Of a stretch of DNA of 64,000 nucleotides, positions 8,875-63,778 are shown in pieces. Both the position numbers and the translations under genes were made by a program. Source of the stretch: an uncultured Thermoplasmata archaeon (GTDB lineage Archaea; Thermoplasmatota; Thermoplasmata; Halarchaeoplasmatales; Halarchaeoplasmataceae); NCBI GenBank assembly GCA_964458595.1, contig CAYWJQ010000003.1:48200-112199 (forward strand), in the 5' to 3' direction. Every line of letters begins with the position of its first letter. Position 1 is the first letter of the stretch. A model generated the notes under the pieces. It worked only from the letters and a program-made list of their open reading frames with translations, ran no database searches and was not told the origin of the DNA.

Positions 8875-9224
8875 AGCCAGGTGACCGATGTAAGCCCCTT
8901 TCTGTTTGGTGATCAGCCAACATTCACCTGCGCGTCCTACCTACCGGTCCCGGAAAGGTCATCCCGGTATTTTTTGGACTTGCTCCGGCGGGGTGAAGTG
9001 GCCGTTTCAGCGTTCCCTTCGATTCCTAGCTCCGCGGGTTAACTCACCTGTCTTGCGACAGATTTCGCACGCGTCACAGCTCCTCGAAGGACGTGTCGTT
9101 TCTGCGCCCTGATCCGTGATTCTCACCACACCAGTTTGCACTGATCCGCCTTTCCTGTGGAGAGGGGACTTTCCTCAGGCCTACCATCATGGTAGTCCCG
9201 TCGGTTGGCCACGGTCTCCTGGCT
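8875..9224 (-). ncRNA. rnpB: RNase P RNA (archaeal)
   Basis: Minus strand carries GAGGAAAGTCC and ACAGAAAGGGGCTTA conserved boxes; ends pair (AGCCAGGAGACCG / CGGTCACCTGGCT); ~350 nt. Confidence 0.93.
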
Positions 9225-29137: not shown

Positions 29138-30403
29138 TTATTTAAGGTATTTGTTTACCATCTTTATAGCACAAACGTCGCCGCACATGGAGCAGGCGTC
29201 CTCCTCGCTGGGATTTTTCTCTTCTCTGAATCTTCTAGCTTTTTCCGGATCTACCACTTCATCGAATGTTTTCTCCCAGTCCAGTTCTTTCCTTGCTTTG
29301 GATATCCTGTTGTCGACGTCTTTATCTATCCCTCGGGCTACGTCGGCCGCGTGAGCCGCGATCTTAGAAGCTATGGTGCCTTCCCTGACATCTTCTATGT
29401 CGGGCAGCCCGAGATGTTCCGCGGGAGTCACATAACATAGAAAATCGGCTCCCTCGGAAGCGGCTAAAGCTCCGCCGATCGCTCCGGCGATGTGGTCGTA
29501 ACCTGGAGCGAAATCCGTGACCAGCGGACCTAGCACATAGAAAGGAGCTCCGTTGCAGACATCTTTTTGTATATCGACGTTGGTCTTTATCTGATCGAGC
29601 GGGACATGTCCCGGCCCTTCGACCATCGCCTGGACGTTCTCTTCTCGAGATCTATCGACGAGTTCACCCAAAGTCAGGAGCTCCTGTATCTGAGGTTTAT
29701 CGGTAGCGTCCGCTATCGAGCCGGGTCTGAATCCGTCGCCCAAACTCAAGGTTAGATTATGTTCTTTAGCTATCTCTAACAAATAATCAAATTCAGAGTA
29801 AAGAGGGTTCTCTTCTTCATTATGAAGCATCCATGCGGATAAGAATGACCCTCCTCTACTCACGACGTTAGTCAATCTTCCACTCTTCTTCAAACTCTCC
29901 ACCGCTTTCATCGTCACTCCGCAGTGAACGGTGATAAAATCAACGCCGTCCTCGGCATGTTTCCTTATACTGTTAAATATATCGTCTGAGGTCATGTCGA
30001 CTACGGCGCTCTCTCTAGCCAGCGTCAAACCACATTGATAAATCGGTACGGTACCTATAGGTAGATCGGTCCGGCTTATCATATCTCTTCTTATCTTGTC
30101 GATATCTCCACCGGTACTCAGATCCATGACCGCGTCCGTTCCGTATTTTTCCGCTATTTCCAATTTATCTAGTTCCTCTTCCAAACTCGATCGATCTTTC
30201 GAGGTGCCAAGATTGACATTTATCTTAACCTTCAAGTCTTGACCGATGGGTTTAGGTTGTGGATCGTGTTTTGGATTATAAGGTATGACCGCCTTTCCTT
30301 CTGCGATAAGATCGGCCAATTTTTCTGCTGAGATAGGTTCTTCTTCCGCGGCTTTCTCCACTATGGGCGGAACGCCGTTTTTACAGTCCTCAGGTAAAGT
30401 CAT
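29138..30403 (-). CDS. thiC: Phosphomethylpyrimidine synthase ThiC (ThiC/Bza family)
   Basis: MDLSTGG, GTVPIYQ, SRGGS, EGPGH, YVTPAEHL, CSMCGDVCA. Confidence 0.92.
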   Translation of the reverse strand: MTLPEDCKNGVPPIVEKAAEEEPISAEKLADLIAEGKAVIPYNPKHDPQPKPIGQDLKVKINVNLGTSKDRSSLEEELDKLEIAEKYGTDAVMDLSTGGDIDKIRRDMISRTDLPIGTVPIYQCGLTLARESAVVDMTSDDIFNSIRKHAEDGVDFITVHCGVTMKAVESLKKSGRLTNVVSRGGSFLSAWMLHNEEENPLYSEFDYLLEIAKEHNLTLSLGDGFRPGSIADATDKPQIQELLTLGELVDRSREENVQAMVEGPGHVPLDQIKTNVDIQKDVCNGAPFYVLGPLVTDFAPGYDHIAGAIGGALAASEGADFLCYVTPAEHLGLPDIEDVREGTIASKIAAHAADVARGIDKDVDNRISKARKELDWEKTFDEVVDPEKARRFREEKNPSEEDACSMCGDVCAIKMVNKYLK

Positions 30404-30486
30404 CGGTAAATCATGAGCAGTTCGGCCTTAAAGTCTTTTTGTAGGTATTTCTTCAAAGATATGAAAGATATAGTGGAAGAACATAC

Positions 30487-30967
30487 AGGATTCACATCCT
30501 TCTATCTCTCGTTTTCTTAACAGAAACACTCTAGACATAACTAATGACAAATTCGTTATGTAAGTGGAATCCGTTCCACACATCCTCGACCATGGGTCTA
30601 CGGATGTCATCCTCATTACGAGGTCTTTGACCGAAGTAAAAGATGGAATCGTTTATTCCATCGCAACTTCTTTTAGGAAAGTTCACTTTCCTAAGAGCGC
30701 AGGAAAATGCATTTTTCCTGCTTATCTACAGGAAAGCTTTAAGCTTTCCTTCGACCGTAGGAATTTAAAATTCCTATACCTCTCAGAAAATCAAAGATTT
30801 TCTAAGTAAATGAGAATTTCTTGAAGAAATTCTTATACCATCGGGAATGTAATTCCCGAAATGAGTCAAAGACGTAAAAAATTCAACAAAGGTTACGTCT
30901 TTGACTATACATCAACCTCTACGAACCCCGATAAAAAAGCATTTCAAAAATCAGTTTAGCGAACTGA
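30487..30967. repeat. Tandem array of about 13 hairpins/palindromes (possible structured ncRNA)
   Basis: Consecutive inverted repeats of 4-14 bp; eight share RGAA...TTCY stems at ~28-nt spacing. Confidence 0.85.
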
Positions 30968-30981
30968 CCGCTCAATTCCTT

Positions 30982-31488
30982 TCACCTGTACATGGGATAT
31001 TTTTTACGGAATTTACTTTTCAGTTTACTCTTCAACTCTTTATCTGCTTCTTCCTGTTCTTCTAGAGAATACTGGAAGGGCGTTCCTTGATTGAACGGGC
31101 CGACCATCACGTATTCCTTTTTTTCCGGTTTACCGGGTAAAGTGGGTTTTTTTCTCATCTGTTTCTCGAAGACTTTCTTCTTTTTATCTTTATCTTCAGA
31201 TTTAGATAGAGCCTTCACAAAGTTTTCCAATTCGCTCTTCTTGAAACGCCTGAAACCGAAATCTGGAAGTTTTTTCTCGAATTGGTCCTTCTCTACGTTT
31301 ATCTCAGTCCCCATCCCCAGAGGGTTCTGATTGTAGATAGAATTCATCTTGATGAAGTAACCTTTATCTTCGTTGATTATGTATATATCATAGAAGTCGT
31401 CTGATCTGTCGGTCCAGAAACTCCATCCTTTTGGATTTTCCTTGTAGTCTTCTCTGAAACTCTCCATTATGTCTTCTATATCTTCCAT
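30982..31488 (-). CDS. Hypothetical protein
   Basis: 168 aa ORF; from memory resembles an uncharacterised haloarchaeal family. Confidence 0.6.
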   Translation of the reverse strand: MEDIEDIMESFREDYKENPKGWSFWTDRSDDFYDIYIINEDKGYFIKMNSIYNQNPLGMGTEINVEKDQFEKKLPDFGFRRFKKSELENFVKALSKSEDKDKKKKVFEKQMRKKPTLPGKPEKKEYVMVGPFNQGTPFQYSLEEQEEADKELKSKLKSKFRKKYPMYR

Positions 31489-31583
31489 GCTTCTACACAC
31501 ATTCTAGGTAATGAAAATGTTTTTTATACTTTTCGATACTCTAAACGATCTACAGCTTCCATCTTGAATAGATCCAGAAATCT

Positions 31584-32081
31584 TCACATCAGAAATGAAT
31601 CTTTATTTTCACTCATATCTATGAAATTGTTGGCAGCCTCTTTAAGATCTTTCGAGGCACTCTGCTCGAATGCCATTATCTCTACTCTGACTCCTTTCGC
31701 TTGAAGATGATTCACGAGGTGGGTGAAGTCTCCGTCGCCAGTCACCAATACGACGACGTCCAATTTGTCCGCGATCTTAAGTGCGTCTATCGCTATCCCC
31801 ATATCCCAGTCCCCTTTTTTCGCGCCGCCGTAATATTCTTTCAGCGGTTTTTTCTTTACTTCGTAGCCAATCTCCTCCAAAATATCAAAAAAATTCTCCT
31901 CGTCGGGAGTTTCGGATTCTATAGCATAAGCGATCGCCCTGGTCACTTTCCTGTTTTGTTTTGCTTTTTTCAGCAGACCTTCGAAATCGACTTTATTGCT
32001 GTAAACATTTCTAGCTGAATAGTACATATTTTGAACGTCGACGAATATTCCTACTCTTTGGTCTTTGTATATTGATACCAT
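31584..32081 (-). CDS. NYN domain (LabA/DUF88) putative ribonuclease
   Basis: IFVDVQN, KGDWDMGIAID and LVTGDGDF acidic active-site motifs. Confidence 0.92.
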   Translation of the reverse strand: MVSIYKDQRVGIFVDVQNMYYSARNVYSNKVDFEGLLKKAKQNRKVTRAIAYAIESETPDEENFFDILEEIGYEVKKKPLKEYYGGAKKGDWDMGIAIDALKIADKLDVVVLVTGDGDFTHLVNHLQAKGVRVEIMAFEQSASKDLKEAANNFIDMSENKDSFLM

Positions 32082-49704: not shown

Positions 49705-50956
49705 TTTTATCACTTCACCTCTAACCCAAGCGTGATAAAAATGTCAAGAAACATCGAAGAAGAGGCTGGAAAAACTGTCCTCTAGATCTGGAAAAACCCA
49801 ATTCTATGAGAAAGCCGCAGAGAACTTAACACCCTGGCGGTAGGTTTAAATTGCCACAAATCCGCTGCCAATAACGGATTTAAGGCTGGTTCAAGCCGAG
49901 TGGCATTTATTCCTTCCGCCACTCTCATTCCGTTCTCAAGGCTTTATCTTCTAGGCCTAGATTCGTTTCCTATCCTTCCCGTTAAATTCCCCATATAACA
50001 CCGGTATTTTTTCGACACCTGTGGTTTTTCCAACCATGTTTTGCCATGAATTAGGCCCACTAAAACCTCTGGAGATAAAATTAATGATGTCGCATTCCAT
50101 ACTTTTTACGACGTCTTACTCTATCAATTCCTTGTTTTTTCGGACATACCTTGCAACGTAGAAACAGCAATTAGTAGAGAGATGACTGAAATAGAGTTTT
50201 AATCCTTGTTTTTTCGGACATACTTTGCAACATGACTGTTTTGCAGACTATAATCATAGCGATACTATAGTTTCAATCCTTGTTTTTTTGGACATACTTT
50301 GTAACTGAAAAATACGAACGGTTTAAAAAACATTTAGATAAGTTTCAATCCTTGTTTTTTCGGACATACTTTGCAACGAAATTATATGACAGTAGTTGAA
50401 ATAGCTGAAAGAAGTTTCAATCCTTGTTTTTTCGGACATACCTTGCAACCTCGGCCATTCGAGTTTATCGACAACGGAAATCTAGTTTCAATCCTTGTTT
50501 TTTCGGACATACCTTGCAACATAGAGATTGAAGTGGATAGAGTGGATATAGCTATAGTTTCAATCCTTGTTTTTTCAGACATACCTTGCAACGAAAAAAA
50601 GATACTGATGTTCCTTTGGAATCCTACAAGTTTCAATCCTTGTTTTTTCGGACATACCTTGCAACTATATATTGAGCGGGAAGTTCCTAAAACTCTAGAT
50701 GAGTTTCAATCCTTGTTTTTTCGGACATACTTTGCAACCGAGAAATATTGCTATGAATGTAGTCTGAAATACCGTGAGTTTCAATCCTTGTTTTTTCGGA
50801 CATACTTTGCAACCTCGATGAACTATTGGAACAGCTAAATGTTGAAAAAGTTTCAATCCTTGTTTTTTCGGACATACTTTGCAACATCGATTCTGGATAC
50901 GGCTGGATAAGCTGTCAGATGTTTCAATCCTTGTTTTTTCGGACATACTTTGCAAC

Positions 50957-51980
50957 TGTAGTATTCCGTAAAAGTTTCGATTCATTTTTTCTCACCTCTT
51001 TCATTATTTTCAATCATTCTAAAGAAATTGCCTACGATGTAAGAACGAGATCTTTTCCAAAATGCTTTCTCAGGTGTTTCTAGATTCTTCCAATCTAGGC
51101 TCATATGTGGTTTGATTTCATTGTACCATTCAATGAAATCTTCTAAAGAATCAAATTCATACCTATGTTGCTCATAGGTATCGAACCATTTTTCGATCTT
51201 ACCGTTAGTTTGAGGATGGTTGTACTTACAGAGAAGTTGTTTGATACCTTTTTCTTCACAGTAATTTTCGAAGCTATGATCAGCATCGTCTTCATTATCT
51301 CTCTTAGTAGCGTAAAATTCAGCTCCTCGATCAGTGATGACTTCTCTTATTGGTCTAATATGGCTGTATTTTCCATACGCTTCATCTAGTAGTTCAATAG
51401 AATGTTCAGCACTTCGATGCTCATACTCTCCTGCGGAGAGTATTTTACGACTAGAATCGTCTAATACAGCACAGATCCACTTACCGTGTTTGTTTTGATG
51501 CCAATCCATATGCACAGCTGATAAGCTGTGATTTCTTTCATACCGAACCCAAGGTTTCTTTCTTCCTTTTTTATTCTCATTTTCCTTGGCCATGTTATTC
51601 TCCAACAAGACTTGATGGACTCTGATATCTCTGATCTTGATACCCTCTTTCTTTCTGAGATATTGTGCTACAGTATTCGCTCCTGTTCCAAGCTTTTTTC
51701 CTGCTTGGATAATCCTCTCCTTGATATCATCTGGATAATCACTGTAAGGTTTTCTGCCTCGTTTTTTCAGCTTTGGGACCTTTCCAGTTTCTCTATATTC
51801 TTGGGTTAGTTGCCGAATTCGACGTTCACTAACGTCGAAATCTTCTGCTGCCTGTTCTACGGATAATCCCTGATCTTCTACCCAGATCACTATTTTTCTG
51901 ACTTCCTCGTTGTTAAGTCCCATAAAATGATTATTCTCATCACTACTTAAATCTTGACGAAATTTTTCCGGAATAGTACA
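50957..51980 (-). mobile_element. IS481-family insertion sequence (1024 bp)
   Basis: 23-bp terminal IRs starting TGT (20/23 match); flanked by duplicated ACATACTTTGCAAC. Confidence 0.9.
50982..51923 (-). CDS. IS481-family DDE transposase
   Basis: N-terminal HTH; HMDW, DDSSR, TDRGAEF, PQTNGKIEKW. Confidence 0.92.
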   Translation of the reverse strand: MGLNNEEVRKIVIWVEDQGLSVEQAAEDFDVSERRIRQLTQEYRETGKVPKLKKRGRKPYSDYPDDIKERIIQAGKKLGTGANTVAQYLRKKEGIKIRDIRVHQVLLENNMAKENENKKGRKKPWVRYERNHSLSAVHMDWHQNKHGKWICAVLDDSSRKILSAGEYEHRSAEHSIELLDEAYGKYSHIRPIREVITDRGAEFYATKRDNEDDADHSFENYCEEKGIKQLLCKYNHPQTNGKIEKWFDTYEQHRYEFDSLEDFIEWYNEIKPHMSLDWKNLETPEKAFWKRSRSYIVGNFFRMIENNERGEKK

Positions 51981-52939
51981 AACATACTTTGCAACCACAA
52001 AATGTTTTTAAGGATTTAAAAAACCCTTTCCGTTTCAATCCTTGTTTTTTCGGACATACTTTGCAACTCAAACGGTGATAATGAACTAGAAGCTGAAAAC
52101 TTGTTTCAATCCTTGTTTTTTCGGACATACTTTGCAACCTCGATGAACTATTGGAACAGCTAAATGTTGAAAAAGTTTCAATCCTTGTTTTTTCGGACAT
52201 ACTTTGCAACGATAAACGAAGCGCACAGTGAACAAGGCGATAAGAGTTTCAATCCTTGTTTTTTCGGACATACTTTGCAACAGAAGTTTCAGGGTTTGAT
52301 TATTGGCAAGAGGTTGAGTGTTTCAATCCTTGTTTTTTCGGACATACTTTGCAACGTTGAATGGCACGAGTATTGTGAAGGGTGTGTTTTGTTTCAATCC
52401 TTGTTTTTTCGGACATACTTTGCAACGAAGATAGCGATAATAAATATAGATAACGCTCTAGTTTCAATCCTTGTTTTTTCGGACATACTTTGCAACAAAG
52501 ACGAAATAAAGGATAAATCAAAAGGTCCTACCCTGTTTCAATCCTTGTTTTTTCGGACATACTTTGCAACCTAGACATGGATAAGTTAGACGGAATATCG
52601 GTTAAAGGTTTCAATCCTTGTTTTTTCGGACATACTTTGCAACTCCGTCCACCCTCTTTGGATATATTCTATGGGTGGAGTTTCAATCCTTGTTTTTTCG
52701 GACATACTTTGCAACCTGGAAGGCAGCAAACCGGACACGATAATAGCCGTGTTTCAATCCTTGTTTTTTCGGACATACTTTGCAACTGAAATAAAAAATA
52801 CATTAAAACAAATCACTACATTGATATCTGAGTTTCAATCCTTGTTTTTTCGGACATACTTTGCAACAAAACCATGAGAGAAAGCATAAGCACAGACGAA
52901 ATAGTTTCAATCCTTGTTTTTTCGGACATACTTTGCAAC

Positions 52940-53357: not shown

Positions 53358-54329
53358 TCACCTCCATCTGTAAGCCTTGAAATTTCCTTTTCCCTGTATA
53401 TGATTCGCCAGATCTTCCGCTTGGAGAAACATGACGTCTAGAAATTCTCTCTTATCTCCTTCATATTTTATCTCTGATTCCATCCGGCCGAAAAGCTTGT
53501 TCAAAAAGGCCTGTTTTCCTTCACCTTGAAGATAACAAGTATTTGGATCGATCTGTTCAAAATCATCACTTTCCAATATATCGCGGTTCAACATGGTCAG
53601 GACGGTCCTATCCACTATCACCGGTCGAAAAGGTTCTATGAAGTCATAAGTCAATGCAGCCTTATCACGATAGCTTTCATGGAAAACTCCGATGTAAGGA
53701 TTCAGCTTAGCTCTAAGTAGCGAATAATGTATCCTTGAATTCAAAACGGTATACCCATAACTCAACATCGAGTTCACGGGGTCCGGTGGAGGATTTTTGT
53801 GTCTTCCTTCAAAATCATAACCCTCTGGAAGTATTTTTTCAAAATTAGAGAAATAGATTCTAGATGCTTCTCCCTCTATACCTCTTAACCTATCCTTACT
53901 ATCTGCTTCGACCACGCTCTTTTTCCTATCTTCAAGCTTTTCATCACTCACATCGAACTGTTCAAGCAGCCTTATCTTGTTATAAATCGAAGCCGCGATC
54001 ATCTCCTTAGCAAGGCCCATGCTTTCTTTTTCAGGTATCCTCATCTGAGATAACCAAACATCGTTGATGGGATTTTCATTCGCTTCAATCACCCTTAGAT
54101 ACTGATCGTGCTCCTCATCGACAAAAACTACATCCACATCTTCCTTTTTCAGATATCTTATCGCAGCACCGGTAACATTGCATTCTCCAAAAAAGATGAC
54201 CTGCTCTAGATACCTGGGACTGAACTCTTTCTCTTCGTCATCTAACTCAACAGCAATCATCTCTCCTTTCTTTTTCAATTTACTCCCATAACCGGATACG
54301 ACAAGATTACGGAGTTTTTTCTCAATCAA
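53358..54329 (-). CDS. cas1: CRISPR-associated Cas1
   Basis: GIEGEASRIYF, DPVNSMLSYGY, GVFH, DFIEPFR; probable TTG start after GGTGA. Confidence 0.95.
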   Translation of the reverse strand: MIEKKLRNLVVSGYGSKLKKKGEMIAVELDDEEKEFSPRYLEQVIFFGECNVTGAAIRYLKKEDVDVVFVDEEHDQYLRVIEANENPINDVWLSQMRIPEKESMGLAKEMIAASIYNKIRLLEQFDVSDEKLEDRKKSVVEADSKDRLRGIEGEASRIYFSNFEKILPEGYDFEGRHKNPPPDPVNSMLSYGYTVLNSRIHYSLLRAKLNPYIGVFHESYRDKAALTYDFIEPFRPVIVDRTVLTMLNRDILESDDFEQIDPNTCYLQGEGKQAFLNKLFGRMESEIKYEGDKREFLDVMFLQAEDLANHIQGKGNFKAYRWR

Positions 54330-54385
54330 AAAAGTCACCAAAAAAATCAATTTGGTTTATTCTATTTAACGGTAAGGAATCTTTA

Positions 54386-55075
54386 TCACCTGTTGTTTTC
54401 TTTTGACCTCTCCATTATTTTCCCGTGCCCTCTAGAAACGCCTTTACCTAAGCCTATAAAATCTGGGAGCTCAAAATTAACTTTAAATTTGCCAGTAAAG
54501 CCTATCATCTTCACCCCCTTGAAGTTCACAACTTCTTCGTCGATATGTGTGTGAACGTAAATCTGTCTATCTACAACTCTGTTGAATCCCTTGCACATCG
54601 AAAGTATATTGCCTGTTAGGATACTATTCAACAACTCTTTTTTTTCTTTCCAGTCATCCATGGACTTGTATTTCTCGTAATTTTCTGAGTTGAGTGCCAA
54701 CCACGGTGTGAGGAACCTGTAATAATGTTGTTCTCTTGTCCCTCCTATACTGGCCTCACCTATGTCAAGGGACCAGCTTTCTACATCATAACAACTAGAT
54801 CCAAGAGTCAGTTGTTCTGCACTATCAACCATCTTCTTGACAAGCTCCTTCCCCTCTTCAAAACCGGATATTATCGGATCTCCTTCGATGACAGCATAAT
54901 GCACTTTTGGATAGTTGAAGACGAGCCCGACGTCGTCAGTATGATGGTGTACCAAGGGTTCATCTTTGAATTTGCTTGCAAAAAAACCTCTCAACTTCTC
55001 TCCGTCTTCCTCTACTTTTCTGCCAGTTTTCACTTTTATGTGAGCGTATTCCAAATCTTTCATCTCAATCTTCAC
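54386..55075 (-). CDS. cas6: CRISPR-associated endoribonuclease Cas6 (Cas6b-like)
   Basis: YPKVHY, TPWLALN, Gly-rich GLGKGVSRGHG. Confidence 0.92.
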   Translation of the reverse strand: MKIEMKDLEYAHIKVKTGRKVEEDGEKLRGFFASKFKDEPLVHHHTDDVGLVFNYPKVHYAVIEGDPIISGFEEGKELVKKMVDSAEQLTLGSSCYDVESWSLDIGEASIGGTREQHYYRFLTPWLALNSENYEKYKSMDDWKEKKELLNSILTGNILSMCKGFNRVVDRQIYVHTHIDEEVVNFKGVKMIGFTGKFKVNFELPDFIGLGKGVSRGHGKIMERSKENNR

Positions 55076-56294
55076 CTAATTTTAGGTGTTGAGCCTTTTT
55101 CAATTTTTTGTCAAAATCATCTATATTTTCCTGTAACTCCTCTTTTAGCCTCTCTTTAAAATCCTCACAGGAGCTTTTTGAGATTGGCTCTGAACCGTGA
55201 GCTAGGATTGAGGTGTTCCTAGCTGCTAGTATATCCAAGAAACCTTTTTCCTTGATCGGGTCTTCAGGCATGTCTCTTTCAACCATCGCGAGGATTCTCC
55301 ATACGTTTTTTAGACCCACTGAAAGAGTAGACCTATTTCCCTTCCAGCTTCTCAAAAGCTCAATTTGAGAATCAGTGAAATATTCCGGGCTGATATCAAT
55401 ATCTGCATGGTGAAGACCATGTTCTTCCCAGAGCCTCCACTGCCCTAGCATCTCCAGGCACCGGTAGCAACGAGCAACGGCATCATCGTATTTACCTTCG
55501 TCCATCCTTCTCAGCAAATTAGCGAAGAGATCAACTATCAGGTCTTCACCCAATCCTGACTTAGACTTTTTATCTTCAATGCATCTCTCAAGATGAGCTA
55601 TATTCATGCCTAGTTCTTTCTGCTCATCACTAGAAAGAATATTTCCATCTATATCTTGAAAAATCTCTCTTGCTTCGTCATGCTTGAATATATCCCATTT
55701 AAAATAACCCTCAGAAATAGTTGAAAGGAATTCACCTTCCTTTTCAATCCTTTTTTCTCTTGTATAGGAAAGAACATCCTGGGAAATATTGAGGGCCATT
55801 TCATATGAATGTTTATCAAAATGAGTCTTTGCCTCGGATAGTAGTGAATCAGCTATCGGTAGAGTGGGCTCCATCGAGTAAATCCGTTCAGATCCGTTGA
55901 CAACCCTACCGGTTTCATCTCTGTTTCCAGTTATATACGAAAAAGAGCCGCACCTTTGGGCCACCCCTGCCAAGGCCAAACCTGCCGACATTGGTTTTGT
56001 CCCGCTGGTGATATTCAAAAATATGTCACTATTTTCAAAACCCTCCTCGATCAATTCTTCGATTGAAGAAAGGGATTCATCGTAGCACTTCTGAACATCG
56101 TCCGGATCGGATACTTTTTCAATCTTAATATCCAACCCTGTTTCAAATTCATCTATTATCGATTTTGCTTTCTCTTCAGACTCTTCTGTCGCTAAAAGCA
56201 CAACTTTTGTCGGGTTGTGGTCAGTGATGCTTTTAGTTATTGGCCTTTCTATACCAGTTCCTACGCCAACAGAACATATCAGTGCTCTTTTCAT
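55065..56294 (-). CDS. CARF-HEPN effector RNase (TIGR02710/Csm6-Csx1-like)
   Basis: ICSVG, NITSGTKPMSAG (CARF); YDDAVARCYRCLE; RNTSILAHG (HEPN). Confidence 0.88.
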   Translation of the reverse strand: MKRALICSVGVGTGIERPITKSITDHNPTKVVLLATEESEEKAKSIIDEFETGLDIKIEKVSDPDDVQKCYDESLSSIEELIEEGFENSDIFLNITSGTKPMSAGLALAGVAQRCGSFSYITGNRDETGRVVNGSERIYSMEPTLPIADSLLSEAKTHFDKHSYEMALNISQDVLSYTREKRIEKEGEFLSTISEGYFKWDIFKHDEAREIFQDIDGNILSSDEQKELGMNIAHLERCIEDKKSKSGLGEDLIVDLFANLLRRMDEGKYDDAVARCYRCLEMLGQWRLWEEHGLHHADIDISPEYFTDSQIELLRSWKGNRSTLSVGLKNVWRILAMVERDMPEDPIKEKGFLDILAARNTSILAHGSEPISKSSCEDFKERLKEELQENIDDFDKKLKKAQHLKLGED

Positions 56295-56299
56295 CTTTA

Positions 56300-57067
56300 C
56301 TACCTCAAAATTTCGAGAAGTTTTTTACCCAACTGCGTGGGATATACCCAATCGTTCCTATATTTTAACAAGTCAAAAGATTCTCCCCTATAGATATCAT
56401 TATCCGTAAGCCGTTCAAGTTCGCTTCTTCTCACCTTTGAGTCGGACCTCCAAATCTTTTTAAAATCTTCCAAAATACCTTGGGGGTAGGGCATTACAGG
56501 CATAGAAATTACCTCGTACTCTGTAGTATCTGGGAACAATATCTCGTCAAATGTTTCCTTGTTCCTTTCGTAATAGCGGTTCAGATCGGAGGCGTGAAAG
56601 AATTCATCTATCTTGTCTTTATTTTGTTCCAATTTTTTATTCCACAAGCTTATCTGTGGGGAGACGACGTGAAAAACGCCATTTACAGGGTTGAATTGCG
56701 ATAGAAAATGTAGACCAGAAGTCATCGTTTTCCGCCCTCCAGCCACGTTAAGATATACCTTGTCCGCGTCGTGTTTTGATTTTTCTTCGTAGATCGCCTC
56801 CATCGTTTCTTTCAAAAATGTAAAGTTATCATCTTCAGAAGTAACGTCATCAAAAGGTAGATCTTTCCAATGAACGTGGATGTTCCAATCGGATAATTCA
56901 AGCGCAGAGACTACAAGTTCCGCTTGTTTCCAGACCTCGTCATCGTCGGTCACGAGTAAAACGACATCGCTCACAAACTCGTTCTTCACTTCGATAAGCC
57001 ATTCAACCAATTCAGTCATCACGGGGGCGCTTCTTCCTACAGCACCGATTACACTACAACCCGTCAT
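56300..57067 (-). CDS. CARF protein, NE0113/Csx14-like (putative ring nuclease) with C-terminal wHTH-like tail
   Basis: VGRSAPVMTE, DV, LNVAGGRKTM, VFHV. Confidence 0.8.
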   Translation of the reverse strand: MTGCSVIGAVGRSAPVMTELVEWLIEVKNEFVSDVVLLVTDDDEVWKQAELVVSALELSDWNIHVHWKDLPFDDVTSEDDNFTFLKETMEAIYEEKSKHDADKVYLNVAGGRKTMTSGLHFLSQFNPVNGVFHVVSPQISLWNKKLEQNKDKIDEFFHASDLNRYYERNKETFDEILFPDTTEYEVISMPVMPYPQGILEDFKKIWRSDSKVRRSELERLTDNDIYRGESFDLLKYRNDWVYPTQLGKKLLEILR

Positions 57068-58200
57068 CTCTCAACCTCCATCTTTATCCATCCGAGTTCT
57101 CCTGTGGGCTCCTTTTCTTTACGATAGAACCTTCTCGTTTTGGGCCACGGTGTCTCAATATCTCCTTTCTGATAGCCTTTATGGGCATATCTTTCTCTCA
57201 GTTTTTTCTTGACTTTATCATCTTTAGCGGCTATCTGTATAGTAGAGCTCAATCGACCCATGCCAAATCCCATATTGAACACAGCAGAGTCTCTTTCCAT
57301 GACCACTTCACGCAACTCTTCCAGTTGATCTATGACCAGACCGTACTGAAAACTATTTTCACAGCTTTTTAGATATTTTAGATCCCTCTCTATACGCTCT
57401 CTAGAGATCATAGTTGCAGCTTCTATGACTTTATCTATTATTTTTTCCTCGGAGAACCCTCCTAGGATTTCTTTTATATTCTCCTCTCCATTCCACTTTT
57501 TTGCCATCCTTGCTATCAAGTCCTCGTGCAGATTTATTTCAGTTCCAAATTCTGTGCCAGGAGCAATTCCCATATGGAGAGTTTCCCAATGTTTAGGCTT
57601 CAACTTGTCGTAATTCTTCGAATAGGTCTTCACGGGAAACACTAGACCCGCTTCATCCGCTGGTTTGCTTTCTGAATCCGAGACCTGGAACCCTTTCATG
57701 CAATCTCTTTGAGGGTCGTCCTTGCCCACTCTAAAGTATTTTTCTACATTTCTATCTATTCTATCTTCTTTGAACCACCATGCTGAAGGATTGTTCATGT
57801 AGTAATAAGTTAAAAGGTTCGTTCTGAGTGCGCCTTTAAGTGAGCTTCCAGGGAGATATATGGTGTTATCAGCTTGCATTATCTGTGGATTTATCTCGCC
57901 CTTTCTCTGAAATAGCTCTTTAGAATAGTCATCAATAAACGAGGCTGAAAAATTCCAGTATTCGTCTTTTTCTTCAAAGAGTTCCTTACCTTTTTCTTCA
58001 AAGAACTCCTTACCTTTCTCTATTTCCTTTTCGATCAATTTCACGATCTTTTTTGCATGCTCTGGATTTTCTGAAAATGCCTTATCCATATTCACTTTTA
58101 CAATCTTATCCCCAACCACGAATGAGTTCATCCTATCAAGTTCCTTACCCTCTCTAGTGCCTATTTTTACTGGGCTCAGGGTCTTCAACGTGATCTTCAC
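57064..58200 (-). CDS. csm5: Type III-A Csm5
   Basis: TLSPVKIG, YLPGSSLKGALRT, FQVSDS, PKTRR...LGW. Confidence 0.92.
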   Translation of the reverse strand: MKITLKTLSPVKIGTREGKELDRMNSFVVGDKIVKVNMDKAFSENPEHAKKIVKLIEKEIEKGKEFFEEKGKELFEEKDEYWNFSASFIDDYSKELFQRKGEINPQIMQADNTIYLPGSSLKGALRTNLLTYYYMNNPSAWWFKEDRIDRNVEKYFRVGKDDPQRDCMKGFQVSDSESKPADEAGLVFPVKTYSKNYDKLKPKHWETLHMGIAPGTEFGTEINLHEDLIARMAKKWNGEENIKEILGGFSEEKIIDKVIEAATMISRERIERDLKYLKSCENSFQYGLVIDQLEELREVVMERDSAVFNMGFGMGRLSSTIQIAAKDDKVKKKLRERYAHKGYQKGDIETPWPKTRRFYRKEKEPTGELGWIKMEVER

Positions 58201-59138
58201 GGTTTCACCCCAACGTTGAAAGCATAACCGTACTGCTGTACGTCAAACTTCTCAGTGTTTACGATAGGATTCCTCCCGTAGACTTCTTTACCGTTGATCG
58301 TTGGAAATATAGAACCTTCAGAAAACATGAAAAGTGTTCTCTTCCAAGGAGAATCCAAGTTAGTGAACGATTGTTCGACGACACCTTTTCTTTTGACCAG
58401 CTCGTAACGAAGTTGATTCTTGTTCCCCTGGTACTCCTCCCATTCTTTTTCGGCTGGGCAGTAAAGAGACAAAGTCATAAACCTGTTGGCTTCTTCAGGT
58501 TTTTCAAATTCGTCAAATTCATCTATCTTCTCCAGATCAAAGTTACCCTTGCCTGTTGAGGTAGAGCCGCCAATACCTCTGCTTTCCAGGTAACGGAGTG
58601 CTCTCACTAACTTTTCCTCAATACCCTCTCCTCTGGTTTCGAGGAGGAAATAGAGATCTGTACCATCAAGGTGCTTGTAAACGGGTTCAAAGAAGAGGTT
58701 GCCCTCCGTAGCGGATGACAATCGATTTATAGCGTTTCCAGGCTGGTCATACTCTGTCATAAAGGCAGTTCTTTCGCTCTCCTCCAAGATGGTTTCAACT
58801 TCTTTTTTTCCATGAACAAATTCATCAAAGTTTTGTGCTGTGACCCATTTCAACTTTTTATTTTCTTTTATTTCCCACATATCCTGGAAATCATCAGGAT
58901 TCTCTTTTGTGAATGTAGGGATTTTTGGTGTAGGAAGATAGTAAGTCTCTTCATGGTAGGGAAACAAGGAGCTGATTTTGAAAGGGGGTTCACCTTTTTT
59001 GAAATCCGCCAAAAGATTAGTGAGTGTCTCCTCACCAAAAACGTGTCTTACGCCCCACGATAGAGCGCCGAATAAAGTGTCGCTATGAGGAAAAGGATCC
59101 TTGAACGGAGATGACGGTTTCAAATGGATTGCCTTCAT
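58197..59138 (-). CDS. csm4: Type III-A Csm4
   Basis: HSDTLFGAL, ISSLFP, GIGGSTSTGKG, FSEGS. Confidence 0.93.
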   Translation of the reverse strand: MKAIHLKPSSPFKDPFPHSDTLFGALSWGVRHVFGEETLTNLLADFKKGEPPFKISSLFPYHEETYYLPTPKIPTFTKENPDDFQDMWEIKENKKLKWVTAQNFDEFVHGKKEVETILEESERTAFMTEYDQPGNAINRLSSATEGNLFFEPVYKHLDGTDLYFLLETRGEGIEEKLVRALRYLESRGIGGSTSTGKGNFDLEKIDEFDEFEKPEEANRFMTLSLYCPAEKEWEEYQGNKNQLRYELVKRKGVVEQSFTNLDSPWKRTLFMFSEGSIFPTINGKEVYGRNPIVNTEKFDVQQYGYAFNVGVKP

Positions 59139-59146
59139 TTTTCCCC

Positions 59147-59899
59147 TCAGCTCTTGATCGCTTCCTTGGGATTTTCTCTCAGATCTTTCACATCTATCTC
59201 TACGCCTTCATTACCTTCCTGGTAATTTTGCTGTGATACAAATGTAGCCGAAAGGTCATTGAATTCAACTTTACCGTAGCCTCTTGTTCCCTGACCTCCG
59301 AGATAAGAGTCTTCTAATAGGTCCATAGCCTCGAAAAGCACCGGGATAAAGGCATAATCGTCCTTTTCTGCCTTAGGCACGTCGTAAAGTCCGAATACAA
59401 ACTCGACTTCGAACTCGGACCCCTTCGGAACTCTTTCAAAATCTCTAGGAGTGGCGCTCGATTCGAGCCTGTTTATGGAGTTCTCCTTCTTCCATTCGGT
59501 GTAAAGAAGGTCAGTATCCATTTCTTTCCACATCTTCTTCGTCTCTTCAGTTGGATGGGCATCTCTTACCGTAAGGCGAGTGGGACCGATCTTATAGCCT
59601 TCGTCAGAAGAAGAACCAAATACCCTACAGATTTCACATTCGATTGCAGACTCTTCATCACTGCACTCGTGCACTTCCCCGTCCTCCATGACAGCGCCTT
59701 CTTCCCATTCAGTTAAGGATCTCATCTTACCTTTAAGAGAACTACCCGGCACGTACGGGTATCCAGAGGGATCCCTTATCACGGGTTGATCAATACCTCC
59801 GATCTCCTGGGTCTCTTTGTTACCTCCAATCTGTAATCCAGTCTTGCAAACAAGGTTGGCTTTTACTACCAAATTTCCCAAAAATTCGGCTCCGCTCAT
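59147..59899 (-). CDS. csm3: Type III-A Csm3
   Basis: TGLQIGG, IGGID (catalytic Asp), PGSSLKGKMRS, LGGQGTRGYG. Confidence 0.95.
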   Translation of the reverse strand: MSGAEFLGNLVVKANLVCKTGLQIGGNKETQEIGGIDQPVIRDPSGYPYVPGSSLKGKMRSLTEWEEGAVMEDGEVHECSDEESAIECEICRVFGSSSDEGYKIGPTRLTVRDAHPTEETKKMWKEMDTDLLYTEWKKENSINRLESSATPRDFERVPKGSEFEVEFVFGLYDVPKAEKDDYAFIPVLFEAMDLLEDSYLGGQGTRGYGKVEFNDLSATFVSQQNYQEGNEGVEIDVKDLRENPKEAIKS

Positions 59900-59903
59900 T
59901 TTT

Positions 59904-60305
59904 TCACTTCTCCGAAAAATATCTATGGTATCCAATAAAGGACTCCATCAATTTGAAAAAATTTTCAATATCTTCAACATCGTCTACTTTTTCGATGAGT
60001 TCGTCAATCGCCTCTTTGAGACCACCAATATCTTCTTTTCTAGCTGCTGCATAGGCTAACTTTGGTCTGACGAGATTTAGTTCGCTTATGGTGTTCTGAA
60101 CTTCTTTTTCCTTGTCCTCAACTGCGTTCCAATCAACCTGTATTTTCTTTATATCATTGTATATTTTTCTAACCTGGGTTTTGTTACCCTGGTGTTCTTT
60201 ACCCATCTTCTCGGCTAACTCATTTATCTCTTTTCCATCCAGACTTCCAATATCTTCCGGCAAGTCTAAACTCTTCCTTCCTTTAGCTCCTCTTTTCCTG
60301 CTCAT
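59904..60305 (-). CDS. csm2: Type III-A Csm2 small subunit
   Basis: TQVRKIY, PKLAYAAAR, ESFIGYHRY. Confidence 0.93.
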   Translation of the reverse strand: MSRKRGAKGRKSLDLPEDIGSLDGKEINELAEKMGKEHQGNKTQVRKIYNDIKKIQVDWNAVEDKEKEVQNTISELNLVRPKLAYAAARKEDIGGLKEAIDELIEKVDDVEDIENFFKLMESFIGYHRYFSEK

Positions 60306-60308
60306 TTC

Positions 60309-62714: not shown

Positions 62715-62791
62715 CTTACCCAAGCGACACCATAAGTTCATTGTCTATATTTAAATTTGATGGCATCTAATCAAAAGAGATTATTGTGCTC

Positions 62792-63778
62792 AAATAGATC
62801 CTTGTTTTTTTGGACATATTTTGCAAAATTCCGGACTTTATACCAGAAATGAAACGGGAAATGATTAGTTTCAATCCTTGTTTTTTCGGACATACCTTGC
62901 AACAATAATCCAAGAGATAGAACCGATTATTCAAATACCGAGTTTCAATCCTTGTTTTTTCGGACATACCTTGCAACCAAGACCTTCGAGAGGGAACTGA
63001 AACTGATAGATTCGTTTCAATCCTTGTTTTTTCGGACATACCTTGCAACAAAATGTCGAAAAAAACACCAAGTGCAGGAGATAAAAGTTTCAATCCTTGT
63101 TTTTTCGGACATACCTTGCAACTCAAAATCAGAGATAAAGGTAAATCAAAGTGGAATAAGTTTCAATCCTTGTTTTTTCGGACATACCTTGCAACGATGT
63201 TTTTTACAGCTTATACAAGAACTCTCCGAAAAGTTTCAATCCTTGTTTTTTCGGACATACCTTGCAACAAAATAATCAACAGCGGTTGTGGTCCTGTTTA
63301 AGAGAGTTTCAATCCTTGTTTTTTCGGACATACCTTGCAACGTAAAGTTAAAGAGGGCTGGAAGGTAGTAAGAAATGTTTCAATCCTTGTTTTTTCGGAC
63401 ATACCTTGCAACAAAGTTACGATTGAACAAACTGCAACGGGAACTAACGTTTCAATCCTTGTTTTTTCGGACATACCTTGCAACTCTACTATACCTTCTA
63501 CTTTCACTGTCTTAATTATTTCAGTTTCAATCCTTGTTTTTTCGGACATACCTTGCAACTTTACATCCTTATATAAAAGAATATCTATCCGAAAAGTTTC
63601 AATCCTTGTTTTTTCGGACATACCTTGCAACTTTGTTAGCTGGAGGGTGATCCGGGTCGGTCATATACTGTTTCAATCCTTGTTTTTTCGGACATACCTT
63701 GCAACAAAGATAGTGAGAGAATAATCATCAAATCTGATAATTGTTTCAATCCTTGTTTTTTCGGACATACCTTGCAAC
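62792..63778 (-). CRISPR. CRISPR array 2: 14 repeats (terminal one degenerate), 13 spacers
   Basis: Repeat GTTTCAATCCTTGTTTTTTCGGACATACCTTGCAAC on +. Confidence 0.98.

What the first reader, a model, noticed from the sequence alone, without database searches (positions are those of the whole stretch)
30487..30967. Periodic array of sequence-diverse hairpins filling a 480-bp intergenic region
Seen: about 13 back-to-back inverted repeats. Eight consecutive ones share an RGAA...TTCY frame at a 25-31 nt period but differ internally while staying paired: GATGGAAT-cgttt-ATTCCATC (30642), TTAGGAAAG-ttca-CTTTCCTAA (30673), GCAGGAAAA-tgcat-TTTTCCTGC (30699), AGGAAAGCT-tta-AGCTTTCCT (30730), TAGGAATT-taa-AATTCCTA (30758), AGAAAATC-aaa-GATTTTCT (30785), AGAATTTCT-tga-AGAAATTCT (30813), TCGGGAAT-gta-ATTCCCGA (30841). 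They are followed by a 14-bp stem AGTCAAAGACGTAA/TTACGTCTTTGACT (30864-30906) and preceded by GTGGAA/TTCCAC (30564) and four or more smaller stems. The RGAA-TTCY spacing varies from 4 to 13 nt, which argues against a fixed-geometry dsDNA operator and for selection on fold. It is not CRISPR (no identical repeats) and has no credible ORF. Inference: an undescribed multi-hairpin ncRNA (protein sponge/scaffold or precursor cut into ~28-nt units) or a cruciform/ssDNA element. G-U extensions occur on both strands, so the strand is unresolved.
Basis: partly seen in the sequence, partly recalled or inferred. Interest (0 to 1): 0.9.

Follow-up and report, generated by a model that had tools for sequence, protein, structure and literature searches.

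The report
Mobile hairpin-repeat element upstream of thiC
The hairpin array is real, but it is one copy of a lineage-specific family of small mobile palindromic DNA repeats in an uncultured sediment archaeon, inserted between two genes, and not a regulator or an RNA gene.

Summary
Eight perfect 8-9-bp GGAA...TTCC hairpins plus a 14-bp terminal stem sit at the stated coordinates, and fold z-scores are -9 to -12.

The array is not unique to this locus. It is the interior of a 441-bp element with inverted ends (window 30469-30909, TATAG...CTATA). The genome holds 36 such hairpin clusters and 219 GGAA hairpins, against about 10 hairpins and no clusters in shuffles.

Four relatives with the same gene order have a 64-110-bp spacer without hairpins at this locus. 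So it is an insertion here.

The recurring unit is a ~55-nt two-hairpin doublet, TCTAC-hpA-TCGA-hpB. Four clean empty/filled site pairs inside transposase genes show no target duplication.

The motif is in 17 of 17 other genomes of the family, in 1 of 133 others of the class, and in no viral contig as a palindrome.

Stems covary strongly but with almost no G-U, loops are mostly 3 nt, and both orientations occur. This points to DNA-level selection, not RNA.

Best reading: selfish DNA like bacterial REP/BIME repeats or IS200/IS605-derived mini-elements. The enzyme that moves it is unidentified.

The parts
30469..30909 (.). Whole composite repeat element, 441 bp, with inverted ends TATAGTGGAAGA... 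and ...TCTTTGACTATA. It is the insertion relative to related genomes.
   Evidence: BLAST homology to about 20 other loci stops at 30469 and at 30909-30921. The termini are shared by other copies. The orthologous spacer is 64-110 bp without hairpins in G011, G015, G001 and G007.
30469..30640 (.). Left-end module. It holds the terminal TATAG, small stems (AGGAT/ATCCT, GTGGAA/TTCCAC at 30564-30579, ACATCC/GGATGT, CCTC/GAGG) and a remnant of the long left hairpin (TAGACATAAC...GTTATGT).
   Evidence: 91-94% identical to C3:11533-11732, C1:262182-262272 and C1:293588-293679. At C1:262182-262329 this module is joined directly to the terminal hairpin with no array between.
30642..30662 (.). Hairpin 1, GATGGAAT-cgttt-ATTCCATC.
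   Evidence: Perfect inverted repeat. The same hairpin occurs at C3:11705 and C12:65705.
30673..30721 (.). Hairpins 2 and 3 (TTAGGAAAG/CTTTCCTAA and GCAGGAAAA/TTTTCCTGC).
   Evidence: Partial homology to C1:274851-274892 and C1:293468-293571.
30725..30780 (+). Canonical two-hairpin doublet: TCTAC, then hpA (30730-30750), TCGA, CCG, then hpB (30758-30776), then TACC.
   Evidence: 96-98% identical to C2:261-312 and C2:169311-169362; the C2:260 copy was detected as an isolated two-hairpin unit. It matches the hpA pattern (G000:C3:78925-78953).
30785..30859 (.). Hairpins 6-8 (AGAAAATC/GATTTTCT, AGAATTTCT/AGAAATTCT, TCGGGAAT/ATTCCCGA).
   Evidence: The block is shared at 90-94% with C12:73356-73527, C5:74813-74969, C2:54-207 and C1:274717-274832.
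30864..30906 (.). Terminal long hairpin with 14-bp arms and a 15-nt loop, followed by the end of the element (ATA, to 30909).
   Evidence: 100% complementary arms. A fuzzy scan printed 30 hits, most loci being hit on both strands, on eleven contigs: C1, C2, C3, C4, C5, C6, C9, C10, C12 and C21. Homology always ends after ...CTATA. Compensated arm variants are seen.
30404..30443 (-). thiC-proximal upstream sequence with a TTTAAAG-type box. It is conserved with the closest relative and untouched by the insertion.
   Evidence: G000 and G011 sequences are nearly identical here and diverge beyond it. That the box is a promoter element is inference.
29138..30403 (-). thiC, the flanking gene downstream of the element in the direction of transcription.
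   Evidence: PF01964, E 3.4e-188.
30982..31500 (-). Conserved 172-aa ORF of no known family, the flanking gene whose stop codon faces the element.
   Evidence: No Pfam match. ORFs of 168-172 aa occupy the same position in G011, G015, G001 and G007.

Best explanation
The 480-bp 'hairpin array' is one copy of a family-specific, non-autonomous mobile DNA repeat in an uncultured sediment Thermoplasmata lineage.

Shown:
- It is a 441-bp element with inverted ends (TATAG...CTATA) that inserted between the stop of a conserved 172-aa gene and the intact thiC-proximal upstream sequence.
- Its interior is a mosaic of small GGAA...TTCC palindromic modules shared in different combinations with about 20 other loci.
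- The clearest module is a ~55-nt doublet (TCTAC-hpA-TCGA-hpB). It occurs alone, in head-to-tail arrays, and as a clean insertion without target duplication inside tnpA, tnpB and DDE transposase genes.
- Pairing within each module is maintained by two-sided changes with almost no wobble pairs.

Inferred:
- The units act as single-stranded DNA hairpins recognised at the stem base (GGAA/TTCC plus the CTAC and TCGA flanks).
- They are moved by a structure-specific enzyme supplied in trans. The leading candidate is an IS200/IS605-type Y1 (HUH) transposase, because pairs of GGAA hairpins are the native subterminal structures at both ends of tnpB-only IS elements in these genomes.
- Arrays grow by insertion next to, or exchange with, existing units.
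- At the thiC locus the element is most likely a passenger with no dedicated function.
For: Multi-copy and mosaic:
- 36 clusters of 3 or more hairpins exist, with arrays of up to 15. BLAST of the region hits about 20 loci piecewise.
- Summed contig depth reaches 481 in the element against 31 in its flanks in run X1.

Insertion at this locus:
- 4 relatives with the same gene order have 64-110-bp spacers without hairpins.

Unit mobility:
- tnpA is empty at C4 and filled by 55 nt at C21, giving a frameshift.
- tnpB 3' ends are empty in L091/L092 and filled in L088/L021. L100 is empty where L097 is filled, and the reverse holds at two other sites. C22 is empty where C8 carries three arrays.
- 13 of 20 isolated doublets begin with TCTAC.

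Lineage restriction:
- The hpA pattern is found in G000 (39 hits) and in 17 of 17 other family genomes. It is found in 1 of 133 genomes of other families of the class and in 1 of 249 phylum-sample genomes outside the family (excluding G000 and G022). Both outside hits are non-palindromic. The reversed-pattern control gave 0 hits in the class search and 1 in the phylum search.
- All 38 viral-contig matches are non-palindromic.

DNA-level constraint:
- 97.3% of cells pair against 72.1% in shuffles. 90 cells have changes on both sides against 29.8 (0 of 500 shuffles). Only 1 one-sided change occurs in 369 cells.
- Among 1795 stem pairs, 12 are G-T, 26 A-C and 35 other mismatches.
- 133 of 218 loops are 3 nt.

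Link to IS200/IS605:
- 15 of 36 tnpB loci carry GGAA hairpins within -80 to +210 nt of the stop codon.
- The left end of tnpB-only elements (L088, L091, L094) matches the right end of L092 at 87-98% over 39-51 nt in the same orientation.
- Y1 transposase genes are present in 23 of 40 other family genomes.
Against: - No mobilising enzyme is identified.
- The Y1 transposase loci examined have other end hairpins; only 3 of 20 have GGAA hairpins nearby, and at least some of those look like insertions.
- G011 has many element copies but no Y1 match, at 93% completeness.
- No conserved target tetranucleotide is seen at the 4 clean insertion sites or the 13 TCTAC flanks. This is unlike characterised IS200/IS605 elements.
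- The composite's inverted ends would rather suggest a DDE transposase. No DDE_3 gene was found, and the 4 DDE_Tnp_1 loci show no obvious matching ends.
- No empty-site read was seen at this locus in four sediment runs.
- Compensated differences between near-identical paralogs could come from a templated mutational process rather than from selection.
- An RNA-level role cannot be excluded without RNA data.
Confidence: 0.7

Rival explanations
1. The arrays work as RNA. They would be multi-hairpin untranslated segments or small-RNA genes that stabilise, terminate or insulate transcripts, as bacterial REP/BIME repeats are reported to do. Alternatively they would bind or sponge an RNA-binding protein that recognises the GGAA/UUCC stem base.
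For: - Very strong predicted folds on both strands.
- The element lies between two co-directional genes.
- On the - strand two hairpins are followed by T runs, against 0.7 expected in shuffles.
- There are more clusters between convergent genes (9) than divergent genes (4).
- Hairpins sit within the guide-RNA-encoding 3' region of tnpB in 15 of 36 loci.
Against: - 1 wobble-type cell of 369, and no G-T excess over A-C (12 against 26).
- Three-nucleotide loops predominate.
- Among tandem-gene contexts the unit's top strand is the template strand 17 times and the coding strand 9 times. Both orientations occur in tnpB 3' regions.
- The element is absent at the orthologous thiC spacer of 4 relatives.
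- No Rfam family matches.
- Units disrupt coding sequences.
Confidence: 0.12
2. The palindromes are kept perfect and diversified by a mutational mechanism rather than by selection or transposition. Candidates are arm-to-arm template switching at quasi-palindromes and replication slippage. The arrays would then be local amplifications.
For: - Near-perfect Watson-Crick stems (96% of 1795 pairs).
- In five paralogous composites with identical linkers, whole stems differ on both arms at single positions.
- Some insertions look built around a pre-existing small palindrome, for example the tnpA target AGTTCT/AGAACT and the start of one C8 insertion.
Against: - It does not explain identical doublets at unlinked loci, clean 54-58-nt insertions with constant TCTAC ends in unrelated genes of different species, or the conserved GGAA/TTCC frame across 7 genera.
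- It is best seen as a complement to mobility, not a replacement.
Confidence: 0.1
3. The array is a double-stranded DNA binding platform. It would hold repeated palindromic operators for a dimeric regulator or nucleoid protein, possibly controlling thiC.
For: - Shared GGAA...TTCC half-sites.
- Roughly 27-31-bp spacing.
- Position upstream of thiC.
Against: - The GGAA-to-TTCC distance varies from 7 to 17 nt, and the inner positions covary instead of matching a consensus.
- The same arrays lie at about 36 unrelated loci, including inside IS genes.
- The array is absent upstream of thiC in 4 relatives, while the 40 nt next to thiC are conserved.
Confidence: 0.04
4. The array is a degenerate CRISPR-like array or a mimic of CRISPR repeats that decoys Cas6.
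For: - The genome has Cas6b and two CRISPR repeat types. One repeat contains GAGGAAT, a heptamer also found in some hairpin arms.
- A Cas6 fragment lies about 700 nt from one hairpin cluster.
Against: - Neither CRISPR repeat is hairpin-like or shares the unit frame.
- The ~27-nt period leaves no room for spacers.
- No palindromic hit was found in viral contigs.
- 0 of 126 spacers match the elements.
Confidence: 0.02

Closest known systems
Bacterial REP sequences and their clusters (BIMEs)
   Same: Both are short extragenic palindromes of 20-40 nt in high copy number. Both are often clustered in regularly spaced arrays of variable composition and carry a conserved tetranucleotide tag beside the stem. 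Both are proposed substrates of a Y1 HUH enzyme (passages of PMC3733652 read; abstract start of PMC2817692 seen in the listing).
   Different: - The host is archaeal. A survey of Y1 proteins found only the IS200-type subclass in Archaea (passages of PMC6006769).
- The units are sequence-diverse inside a fixed GGAA/TTCC frame rather than near-identical.
- Units in an array are head-to-tail, not alternating.
- The tag is CTAC 5' of the stem, so GTAG lies 3' on the other strand.
- No REP-associated transposase gene flanked by the repeats was found.
REPINs (REP doublets forming hairpins)
   Same: In both, the replicating unit is a doublet rather than a single palindrome. Both are non-autonomous and persist in one lineage (passages of PMC3116915).
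   Different: - A REPIN is two inverted copies of one REP that fold into one long hairpin. Here the doublet is two different short hairpins in tandem.
- No single-copy cognate transposase was identified.
IS200/IS605 family ends and their transposase-less derivatives (palindrome-associated transposable elements)
   Same: - Both have hairpin-defined ends and no target duplication at 4 clean sites.
- A doublet has the layout of a left-end hairpin plus a right-end hairpin with nothing between.
- GGAA hairpin pairs are the native structures at both ends of tnpB-only elements here.
   Different: - There is no conserved target tetranucleotide 5' of the insertions.
- The Y1 genes found have unrelated end hairpins.
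- Units build arrays of up to 15.
- My knowledge of the derivative class is recalled; only search listings holding the term were seen.
Small dispersed repeats of heterocystous cyanobacteria (Elhai et al. 2008)
   Same: Both are very small units (about 20 nt each there), tandemly repeated in varying numbers, thought mobile, and precisely inserted into other repeats. This rests on citing passages in PMC2884548 and PMC4390886; the rest is recalled.
   Different: - The domain of life, the sequence and the frame all differ.
- The original paper is not held, so the details could not be compared.
Modular MITEs with a variable number of internal modules (pneumococcal BOX elements: boxA, n x boxB, boxC)
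   Same: Both have conserved left and right end modules with a variable number of internal structured modules. A copy with zero internal modules exists here (C1:262182-262329).
   Different: - BOX internal modules are copies of one sequence. Here they are diverse palindromes that are also mobile on their own.
- The comparison is recalled from memory and was not checked in a paper.

Membership tests
REP/BIME (bacterial repetitive extragenic palindromes) | Short imperfect palindromes, many copies, mostly outside genes, often clustered | tested here: met
   219 GGAA hairpins against 9-11 in shuffles, and 36 clusters of 3 or more against 0. At least 137 of 218 lie outside the heuristic gene set that covers 90% of the genome, and most of the rest lie in spurious short ORFs made of the arrays.
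REP/BIME (bacterial repetitive extragenic palindromes) | Cognate REP-associated Y1 transposase gene, typically single-copy and flanked by the repeats | tested here: not met
   G000 has one Y1 gene split by hairpin insertions and one Y1 fragment cut by a contig end, both IS200-like. In 20 Y1 loci of the family only 3 have GGAA hairpins nearby. Only the IS200 subclass is reported in Archaea (PMC6006769 passages).
REP/BIME (bacterial repetitive extragenic palindromes) | Alternating orientation of units within clusters | tested here: not met
   Orientation-marking motifs of hpA and hpB keep one relative orientation within every array where they occur.
IS200/IS605-derived mini-elements | Subterminal hairpins at both ends and no target-site duplication | tested here: met
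   The doublet is hpA plus hpB. There are 4 clean empty/filled pairs without duplication: tnpA C4/C21, L091-L092/L088-L021, L100/L097, and L097/L100.
IS200/IS605-derived mini-elements | Insertion 3' of a conserved tetra- or pentanucleotide | tested here: not met
   The bases 5' of TCTAC differ at the 4 events and at the 13 isolated doublets.
IS200/IS605-derived mini-elements | An autonomous relative with like ends in the same genomes | tested here: inconclusive
   tnpB-only elements have GGAA hairpin pairs at both ends. No tnpA-encoding element with such ends was seen in the 20 loci examined.
Inverted-end MITE (for the 441-bp composite) | Terminal inverted repeats, many copies, no coding capacity | tested here: met
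   The ends TATAGT(G/C)(G/A)AAGAC are shared by copies. Only a spurious 81-aa ORF overlaps the element.
Inverted-end MITE (for the 441-bp composite) | Target-site duplication and a matching autonomous IS | tested here: inconclusive
   A TA duplication cannot be told apart from the palindromic TATA of the ends. There is no DDE_3 gene, and the four DDE_Tnp_1 loci show no obvious matching ends.
CRISPR array | Near-identical repeats separated by unique spacers of similar length | tested here: not met
   The units differ in sequence, and the ~27-nt period leaves no spacer. The genome's true CRISPR repeats are unrelated.
Known structured RNA family, including the TPP riboswitch expected upstream of thiC in some lineages | A match to an Rfam covariance model | tested here: not met
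   There is no match at gathering score in the region. The best E-value-mode match has E 0.18 at 23.7 bits against a 100-bit threshold.
Structured RNA under selection (generic) | Covariation including wobble intermediates, a fixed transcribed strand, and expression | tested here: inconclusive
   Covariation is strong but has 1 wobble-type cell of 369. There is no clear strand bias. Expression is not testable because no RNA run is listed.
Type III toxin-antitoxin RNA repeats (ToxI-like) | Near-identical tandem repeats directly upstream of a toxin gene | tested here: not met
   The units are diverse and the flanking genes are thiC and a conserved 172-aa ORF. Arrays lie at many unrelated loci.

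The most novel reading that the evidence does not exclude
The ~55-nt TCTAC-hpA-TCGA-hpB doublet may be a new class of ultra-small mobile element in Archaea, defined by structure rather than sequence.
- It would be recognised as a single-stranded hairpin pair by an enzyme that is not a classical REP-associated or IS200 transposase.
- It would insert without target duplication or target motif.
- It would exchange hairpin cores like cassettes between copies.
- It would preferentially colonise and break other insertion sequences (tnpA, tnpB 3' guide-RNA regions, 4 of 4 DDE transposase loci). That would make it a parasite of transposons, or a host-favoured silencer of them.
Probability: 0.25. Interest if true: 0.8.

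Novelty: new variant of a known kind. Interest (0 to 1): 0.55.

Why it matters
REP-like palindromic repeats and their doublet replicators have been studied almost only in bacteria. The survey passages I read report only IS200-type Y1 proteins in Archaea (PMC6006769). My two literature searches on archaeal REP-like repeats and on MITEs in sediment Thermoplasmata found no description of such elements.

This family offers four things:
- A natural library of dozens of stem variants inside a fixed GGAA/TTCC frame. That defines what a structure-specific single-stranded DNA enzyme must read.
- Clean insertion events for working out a mechanism.
- Repeated hits in the guide-RNA region of tnpB, of interest to people who study or engineer these RNA-guided nucleases.
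- A warning for annotation: such arrays break assemblies, create spurious ORFs and mimic structured RNAs in fold-based screens.

For thiC itself the finding is ordinary: the element is a passenger.

Tried and rejected
- Rfam at gathering score and at E up to 5 gave nothing credible. There was no TPP riboswitch.
- RNA evidence: no RNA holder is listed among 9 runs, so expression is untested.
- Four sediment DNA runs were laid on 29600-31600. Contigs join each unique flank to the element (records 1 and 8), but no contig spans it and no empty-site joint was seen. The one joint listed (30776 to 30829, run X6) fits a paralogous copy.
- CRISPR link: the repeats are not hairpin-like. 0 of 126 spacers match the elements or any IS; only intra-array duplicates and one 18-nt match were found.
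- Viral origin: all 38 viral-contig pattern hits are chance. They have 0-2 inner pairs, and the flanking W-W positions pair in 16 of 38.
- Search for an autonomous partner. No DDE_3 gene was found. Genes next to arrays are ordinary (PQQ propeller, NosD-like, MatE, phosphoglucomutase, DNA glycosylase, KaiC-like) apart from tnpB, a DDE fragment and a Cas6 fragment.
- Y1 transposase as a flanked, REP-associated-type gene was not found.
- The strand test by wobble pairs gave 12 G-T against 26 A-C on the unit's top strand. This is a weak lean, the copies are not independent, and I draw no conclusion from it.
- Orientation relative to genes was 17 template against 9 coding, which is not decisive.
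- A sigma-70 promoter scan is not applicable to archaea and was ignored.
- The gene set is a longest-ORF heuristic, not a gene caller.
- Supplementary files of papers were not consulted.
Full report
**1. What is at the coordinates**

The region 30404-30981 lies between two genes on the - strand. One is a conserved 172-aa ORF with no Pfam family (30982-31500). The other is thiC (29138-30403, PF01964, E 3.4e-188).

Arms are 8-9 nt, loops 3-5 nt, and centres are 26.5-31.5 nt apart. The 14-bp stem at 30864-30906 is 100% complementary.

- As RNA the region folds at z -10.09 (+ strand) and -9.33 (- strand), with 0 of 100 shuffles as good.
- As DNA the core 30636-30911 folds at z -11.84, with 0 of 200 shuffles as good.
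- No Rfam family matches.

**2. It is not a singular feature**

I scanned the whole 2.46-Mb assembly (35 contigs; the window is C3:48200-112199) for perfect hairpins with stems of 7 or more and loops of 3-7.

- There are 1216 hairpins. Of these, 219 carry GGAA in the 5' arm, against 26 with TTCC there. There are 36 clusters of 3 or more, with arrays of up to 11 perfect hairpins or 15 under a lenient definition.
- Two block-shuffled genomes gave 629 and 638 hairpins, 11 and 9 with GGAA, and no cluster of 3 or more.
- Several arrays sit at contig ends, as expected for repeats that break assembly.
- BLAST of the region with 600-nt flanks shows homology confined to 30469-30909/30921. It is piecewise, to about 20 loci at 82-100% identity.
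- In sediment run X1 the summed contig depth is 31 in the flanks and up to 481 inside the element.

**3. Anatomy of the copy in the window**

The element runs from TATAG (30469-30473) to CTATA (30905-30909) and has about 18-nt inverted ends. Other copies share these ends, and beyond them the sequences are unrelated.

It has three parts:
- a left-end module (30469-30640);
- the hairpin array (30642-30859);
- a terminal long hairpin (30864-30906).

One copy (C1:262182-262329) has the left module joined directly to the terminal hairpin with no array. Minimal copies made of two long hairpins also exist. So the array is a variable insert within a MITE-like shell with inverted ends.

**4. It is an insertion at this locus**

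In four relatives with the same gene order (G011, G015, G001, G007) the spacer between the 168-172-aa ORF and thiC is 64-110 bp and holds no hairpin.

The 40 nt next to the thiC start codon include a TTTAAAG-type box. They are nearly identical between G000 and G011, and the element lies upstream of them. I infer that the thiC promoter is intact and that the element is a passenger.

**5. The recurring unit**

Isolated pairs of hairpins share one layout: TCTAC, hpA ((A/T)GGAA...TTCC(T/A)), TCGA, 2-3 nt, hpB, then (G/A)(T/A)AA. Of 20 isolated doublets, 13 start with TCTAC. Within arrays, the hpA and hpB orientation marks always keep the same relative direction, so units are head-to-tail.

The window's array contains one canonical doublet (30725-30780). 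Copies at 96-98% identity occur at two places on contig C2; the one at C2:260 was detected as an isolated two-hairpin unit.

Clean empty/filled comparisons:
- tnpA is uninterrupted at C4. At C21 it carries a 55-nt doublet that shifts the frame.
- One tnpB subfamily lacks the doublet in G008 and G050 (L091, L092). It has a 58-nt doublet at the same point in G001 and G000 (L088, L021).
- A second subfamily is empty in L100 and filled in L097. The reverse holds at two other points.
- Two near-identical tnpB elements in G000 differ by a 7-hairpin array upstream and two 3-hairpin arrays in the 3' region (C8 against C22). G002 carries the same 3' hairpin positions as the C8 copy.

In the four cleanest pairs the insert starts at (A)TCTAC and ends at ...TAA or ...ATA. 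There is no target duplication, and the flanking bases are not conserved.

**6. Distribution**

The related genomes that are named are uncultured Thermoplasmata or Thermoplasmatota MAGs. The runs that hold the locus are sediment metagenomes.

| Search | Result |
|---|---|
| 521-nt element, same family | 20 of 24 other genomes hit |
| 521-nt element, other families of the class | 0 of 16 |
| hpA pattern CTACWGGAA-N7-17-TTCCWTCGA, G000 | 39 hits |
| hpA pattern, other genomes of the family (7 genera) | 17 of 17, with 2-9 hits each |
| hpA pattern, other families of the class | 1 of 133, non-palindromic |
| hpA pattern, phylum sample outside the family | 1 of 249, non-palindromic |
| Reversed-pattern control | 0 hits (class search), 1 hit (phylum search) |
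| hpA pattern, 2.9 million viral contigs | 38 single hits, none palindromic |

The viral hits serve as a useful negative control. They have 0-2 inner pairs, and the flanking W positions pair in 16 of 38.

**7. Constraint on pairing, and at what level**

In 45 distinct hpA units the W...W positions pair in 45 of 45 (20 A-T, 25 T-A). The third inner position pairs in 44 of 44 with three pair types.

On an ungapped alignment of 41 distinct 29-nt units:
- 97.3% of cells pair, against 72.1% in shuffles.
- 90 cells carry changes on both sides, against 29.8.
- The covariation score is 0.569, against 0.132.
- No shuffle of 500 reaches any of these values, and slid controls give at most 0.131.
- Only 1 of 369 cells is a one-sided (wobble-type) change.

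Across 194 oriented hairpins, 1722 of 1795 pairs are Watson-Crick. There are 12 G-T, 26 A-C and 35 other mismatches. Loops are 3 nt in 133 of 218 hairpins.

Unit orientation relative to neighbouring genes is mixed: 17 template against 9 coding in tandem contexts, 9 convergent, 4 divergent, and 9 inside long ORFs.

These features fit DNA hairpins or perfect palindromes better than a selected RNA fold.

**8. Link to IS200/IS605-type elements**

- tnpB is present in 36 of 40 other family genomes, and Y1 tnpA in 23 of 40.
- In 15 of 36 tnpB loci examined (29 from relatives, 7 own), GGAA hairpins lie within -80 to +210 nt of the stop codon. That is the region encoding the guide RNA and the right end.
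- One tnpB-only subfamily has, natively at both ends and in the same orientation, an outer stem (CCTCCG/CGGAGG) enclosing two GGAA hairpins. The left ends of L088, L091 and L094 match the right end of L092 at 87-98% over 39-51 nt.
- In another copy (C6) the same junction holds four hairpins.

So GGAA hairpin pairs are end structures of this IS family in this lineage, which makes a Y1 HUH transposase the leading candidate mover.

Against this reading:
- The tnpA-encoding loci seen have other hairpins.
- There is no conserved target.
- G011 has many copies but no Y1 match.

**9. Nesting in insertion sequences**

About half of the 20 isolated doublets lie in or beside IS genes:
- two events in tnpA;
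- three tnpB loci;
- all 4 DDE_Tnp_1 loci, two of which are copies of one IS.

This may reflect tolerance of insertions in dispensable DNA, or real targeting. I cannot tell which.

**10. An unexplained point**

Five paralogous composites have identical linkers, yet at single hairpin positions the whole stem and loop differ on both arms. This looks like cassette-like replacement or arm-to-arm templated correction.

**11. Comparison with known systems**

The closest kinds are:
- bacterial REP/BIME repeats and REPINs;
- IS200/IS605 ends and their transposase-less derivatives;
- cyanobacterial small dispersed repeats;
- modular MITEs.

It fails defining features of each:
- no REP-associated transposase;
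- head-to-tail rather than alternating units;
- a tandem pair of different hairpins rather than an inverted pair of one;
- no target motif.

I therefore file it as a new variant of a known kind, not as a member of any one family.

Papers:
- I read passages of PMC3733652, PMC3116915, PMC4390886, PMC2884548 and PMC6006769.
- Elhai et al. 2008 is not held.
- The BOX-element comparison is recalled.
- That such elements are undescribed in this lineage rests on the searches only.

**12. Verdict**

The ncRNA interpretation is not supported, while the 'ssDNA element' alternative is broadly right.

The feature is selfish, lineage-specific palindromic mobile DNA with an unidentified mover. It is moderately interesting for mobile-DNA and tnpB biology, and ordinary for thiC.

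Noticed in passing
window 53358-62741 with arrays at about 50268-50975, 52031-52921 and 62867-63760: A type III-A-like CRISPR-Cas locus: cas10, three RAMP genes, two CARF/Csm6-like genes, cas6b and cas1. It is flanked by CRISPR arrays with a 36-37-nt repeat.
   Followed up: partly
window 50982-51998 (-): A 338-aa ORF with helix-turn-helix and rve integrase-core domains sits between two stretches of the same CRISPR repeat. One spacer is duplicated on either side (C3:99013 and C3:100338). An insertion sequence appears to have split or rearranged the array.
   Followed up: partly
G000 contigs C8:117650-118732 and C22:16606-17682 (outside the window): Two 92%-identical tnpB elements differ only by hairpin arrays inserted upstream and inside the 3' guide-RNA region. 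G002 carries the version with hairpins at the same positions. Hairpin-bearing guide-RNA regions therefore persist across species.
   Followed up: partly
G000 contigs C8:1867-2547, C4:113032-113699, C4:177056-179988, C28:121-1032 (outside the window): All four DDE_Tnp_1 transposase loci carry a hairpin doublet inside or within about 160 nt of the DDE-domain match. The C28 copy also has 7 in-frame stops.
   Followed up: partly
G000 contigs C15:22800-28653 and C5:157758-158238 (outside the window): A second CRISPR repeat type of 30 nt, with 88 repeats on C15. It contains the heptamer GAGGAAT, which also occurs in some hairpin arms. This is probably coincidence.
   Followed up: no
window 8879-9220 (-): Archaeal RNase P RNA (RF00373, 189 bits), which confirms an archaeal host.
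   Followed up: no
window 30982-31500 (-) and orthologues in L024, L025, L027, L029: A conserved 168-172-aa ORF with no Pfam family always lies between an NYN-domain gene and thiC in this genus.
   Followed up: no
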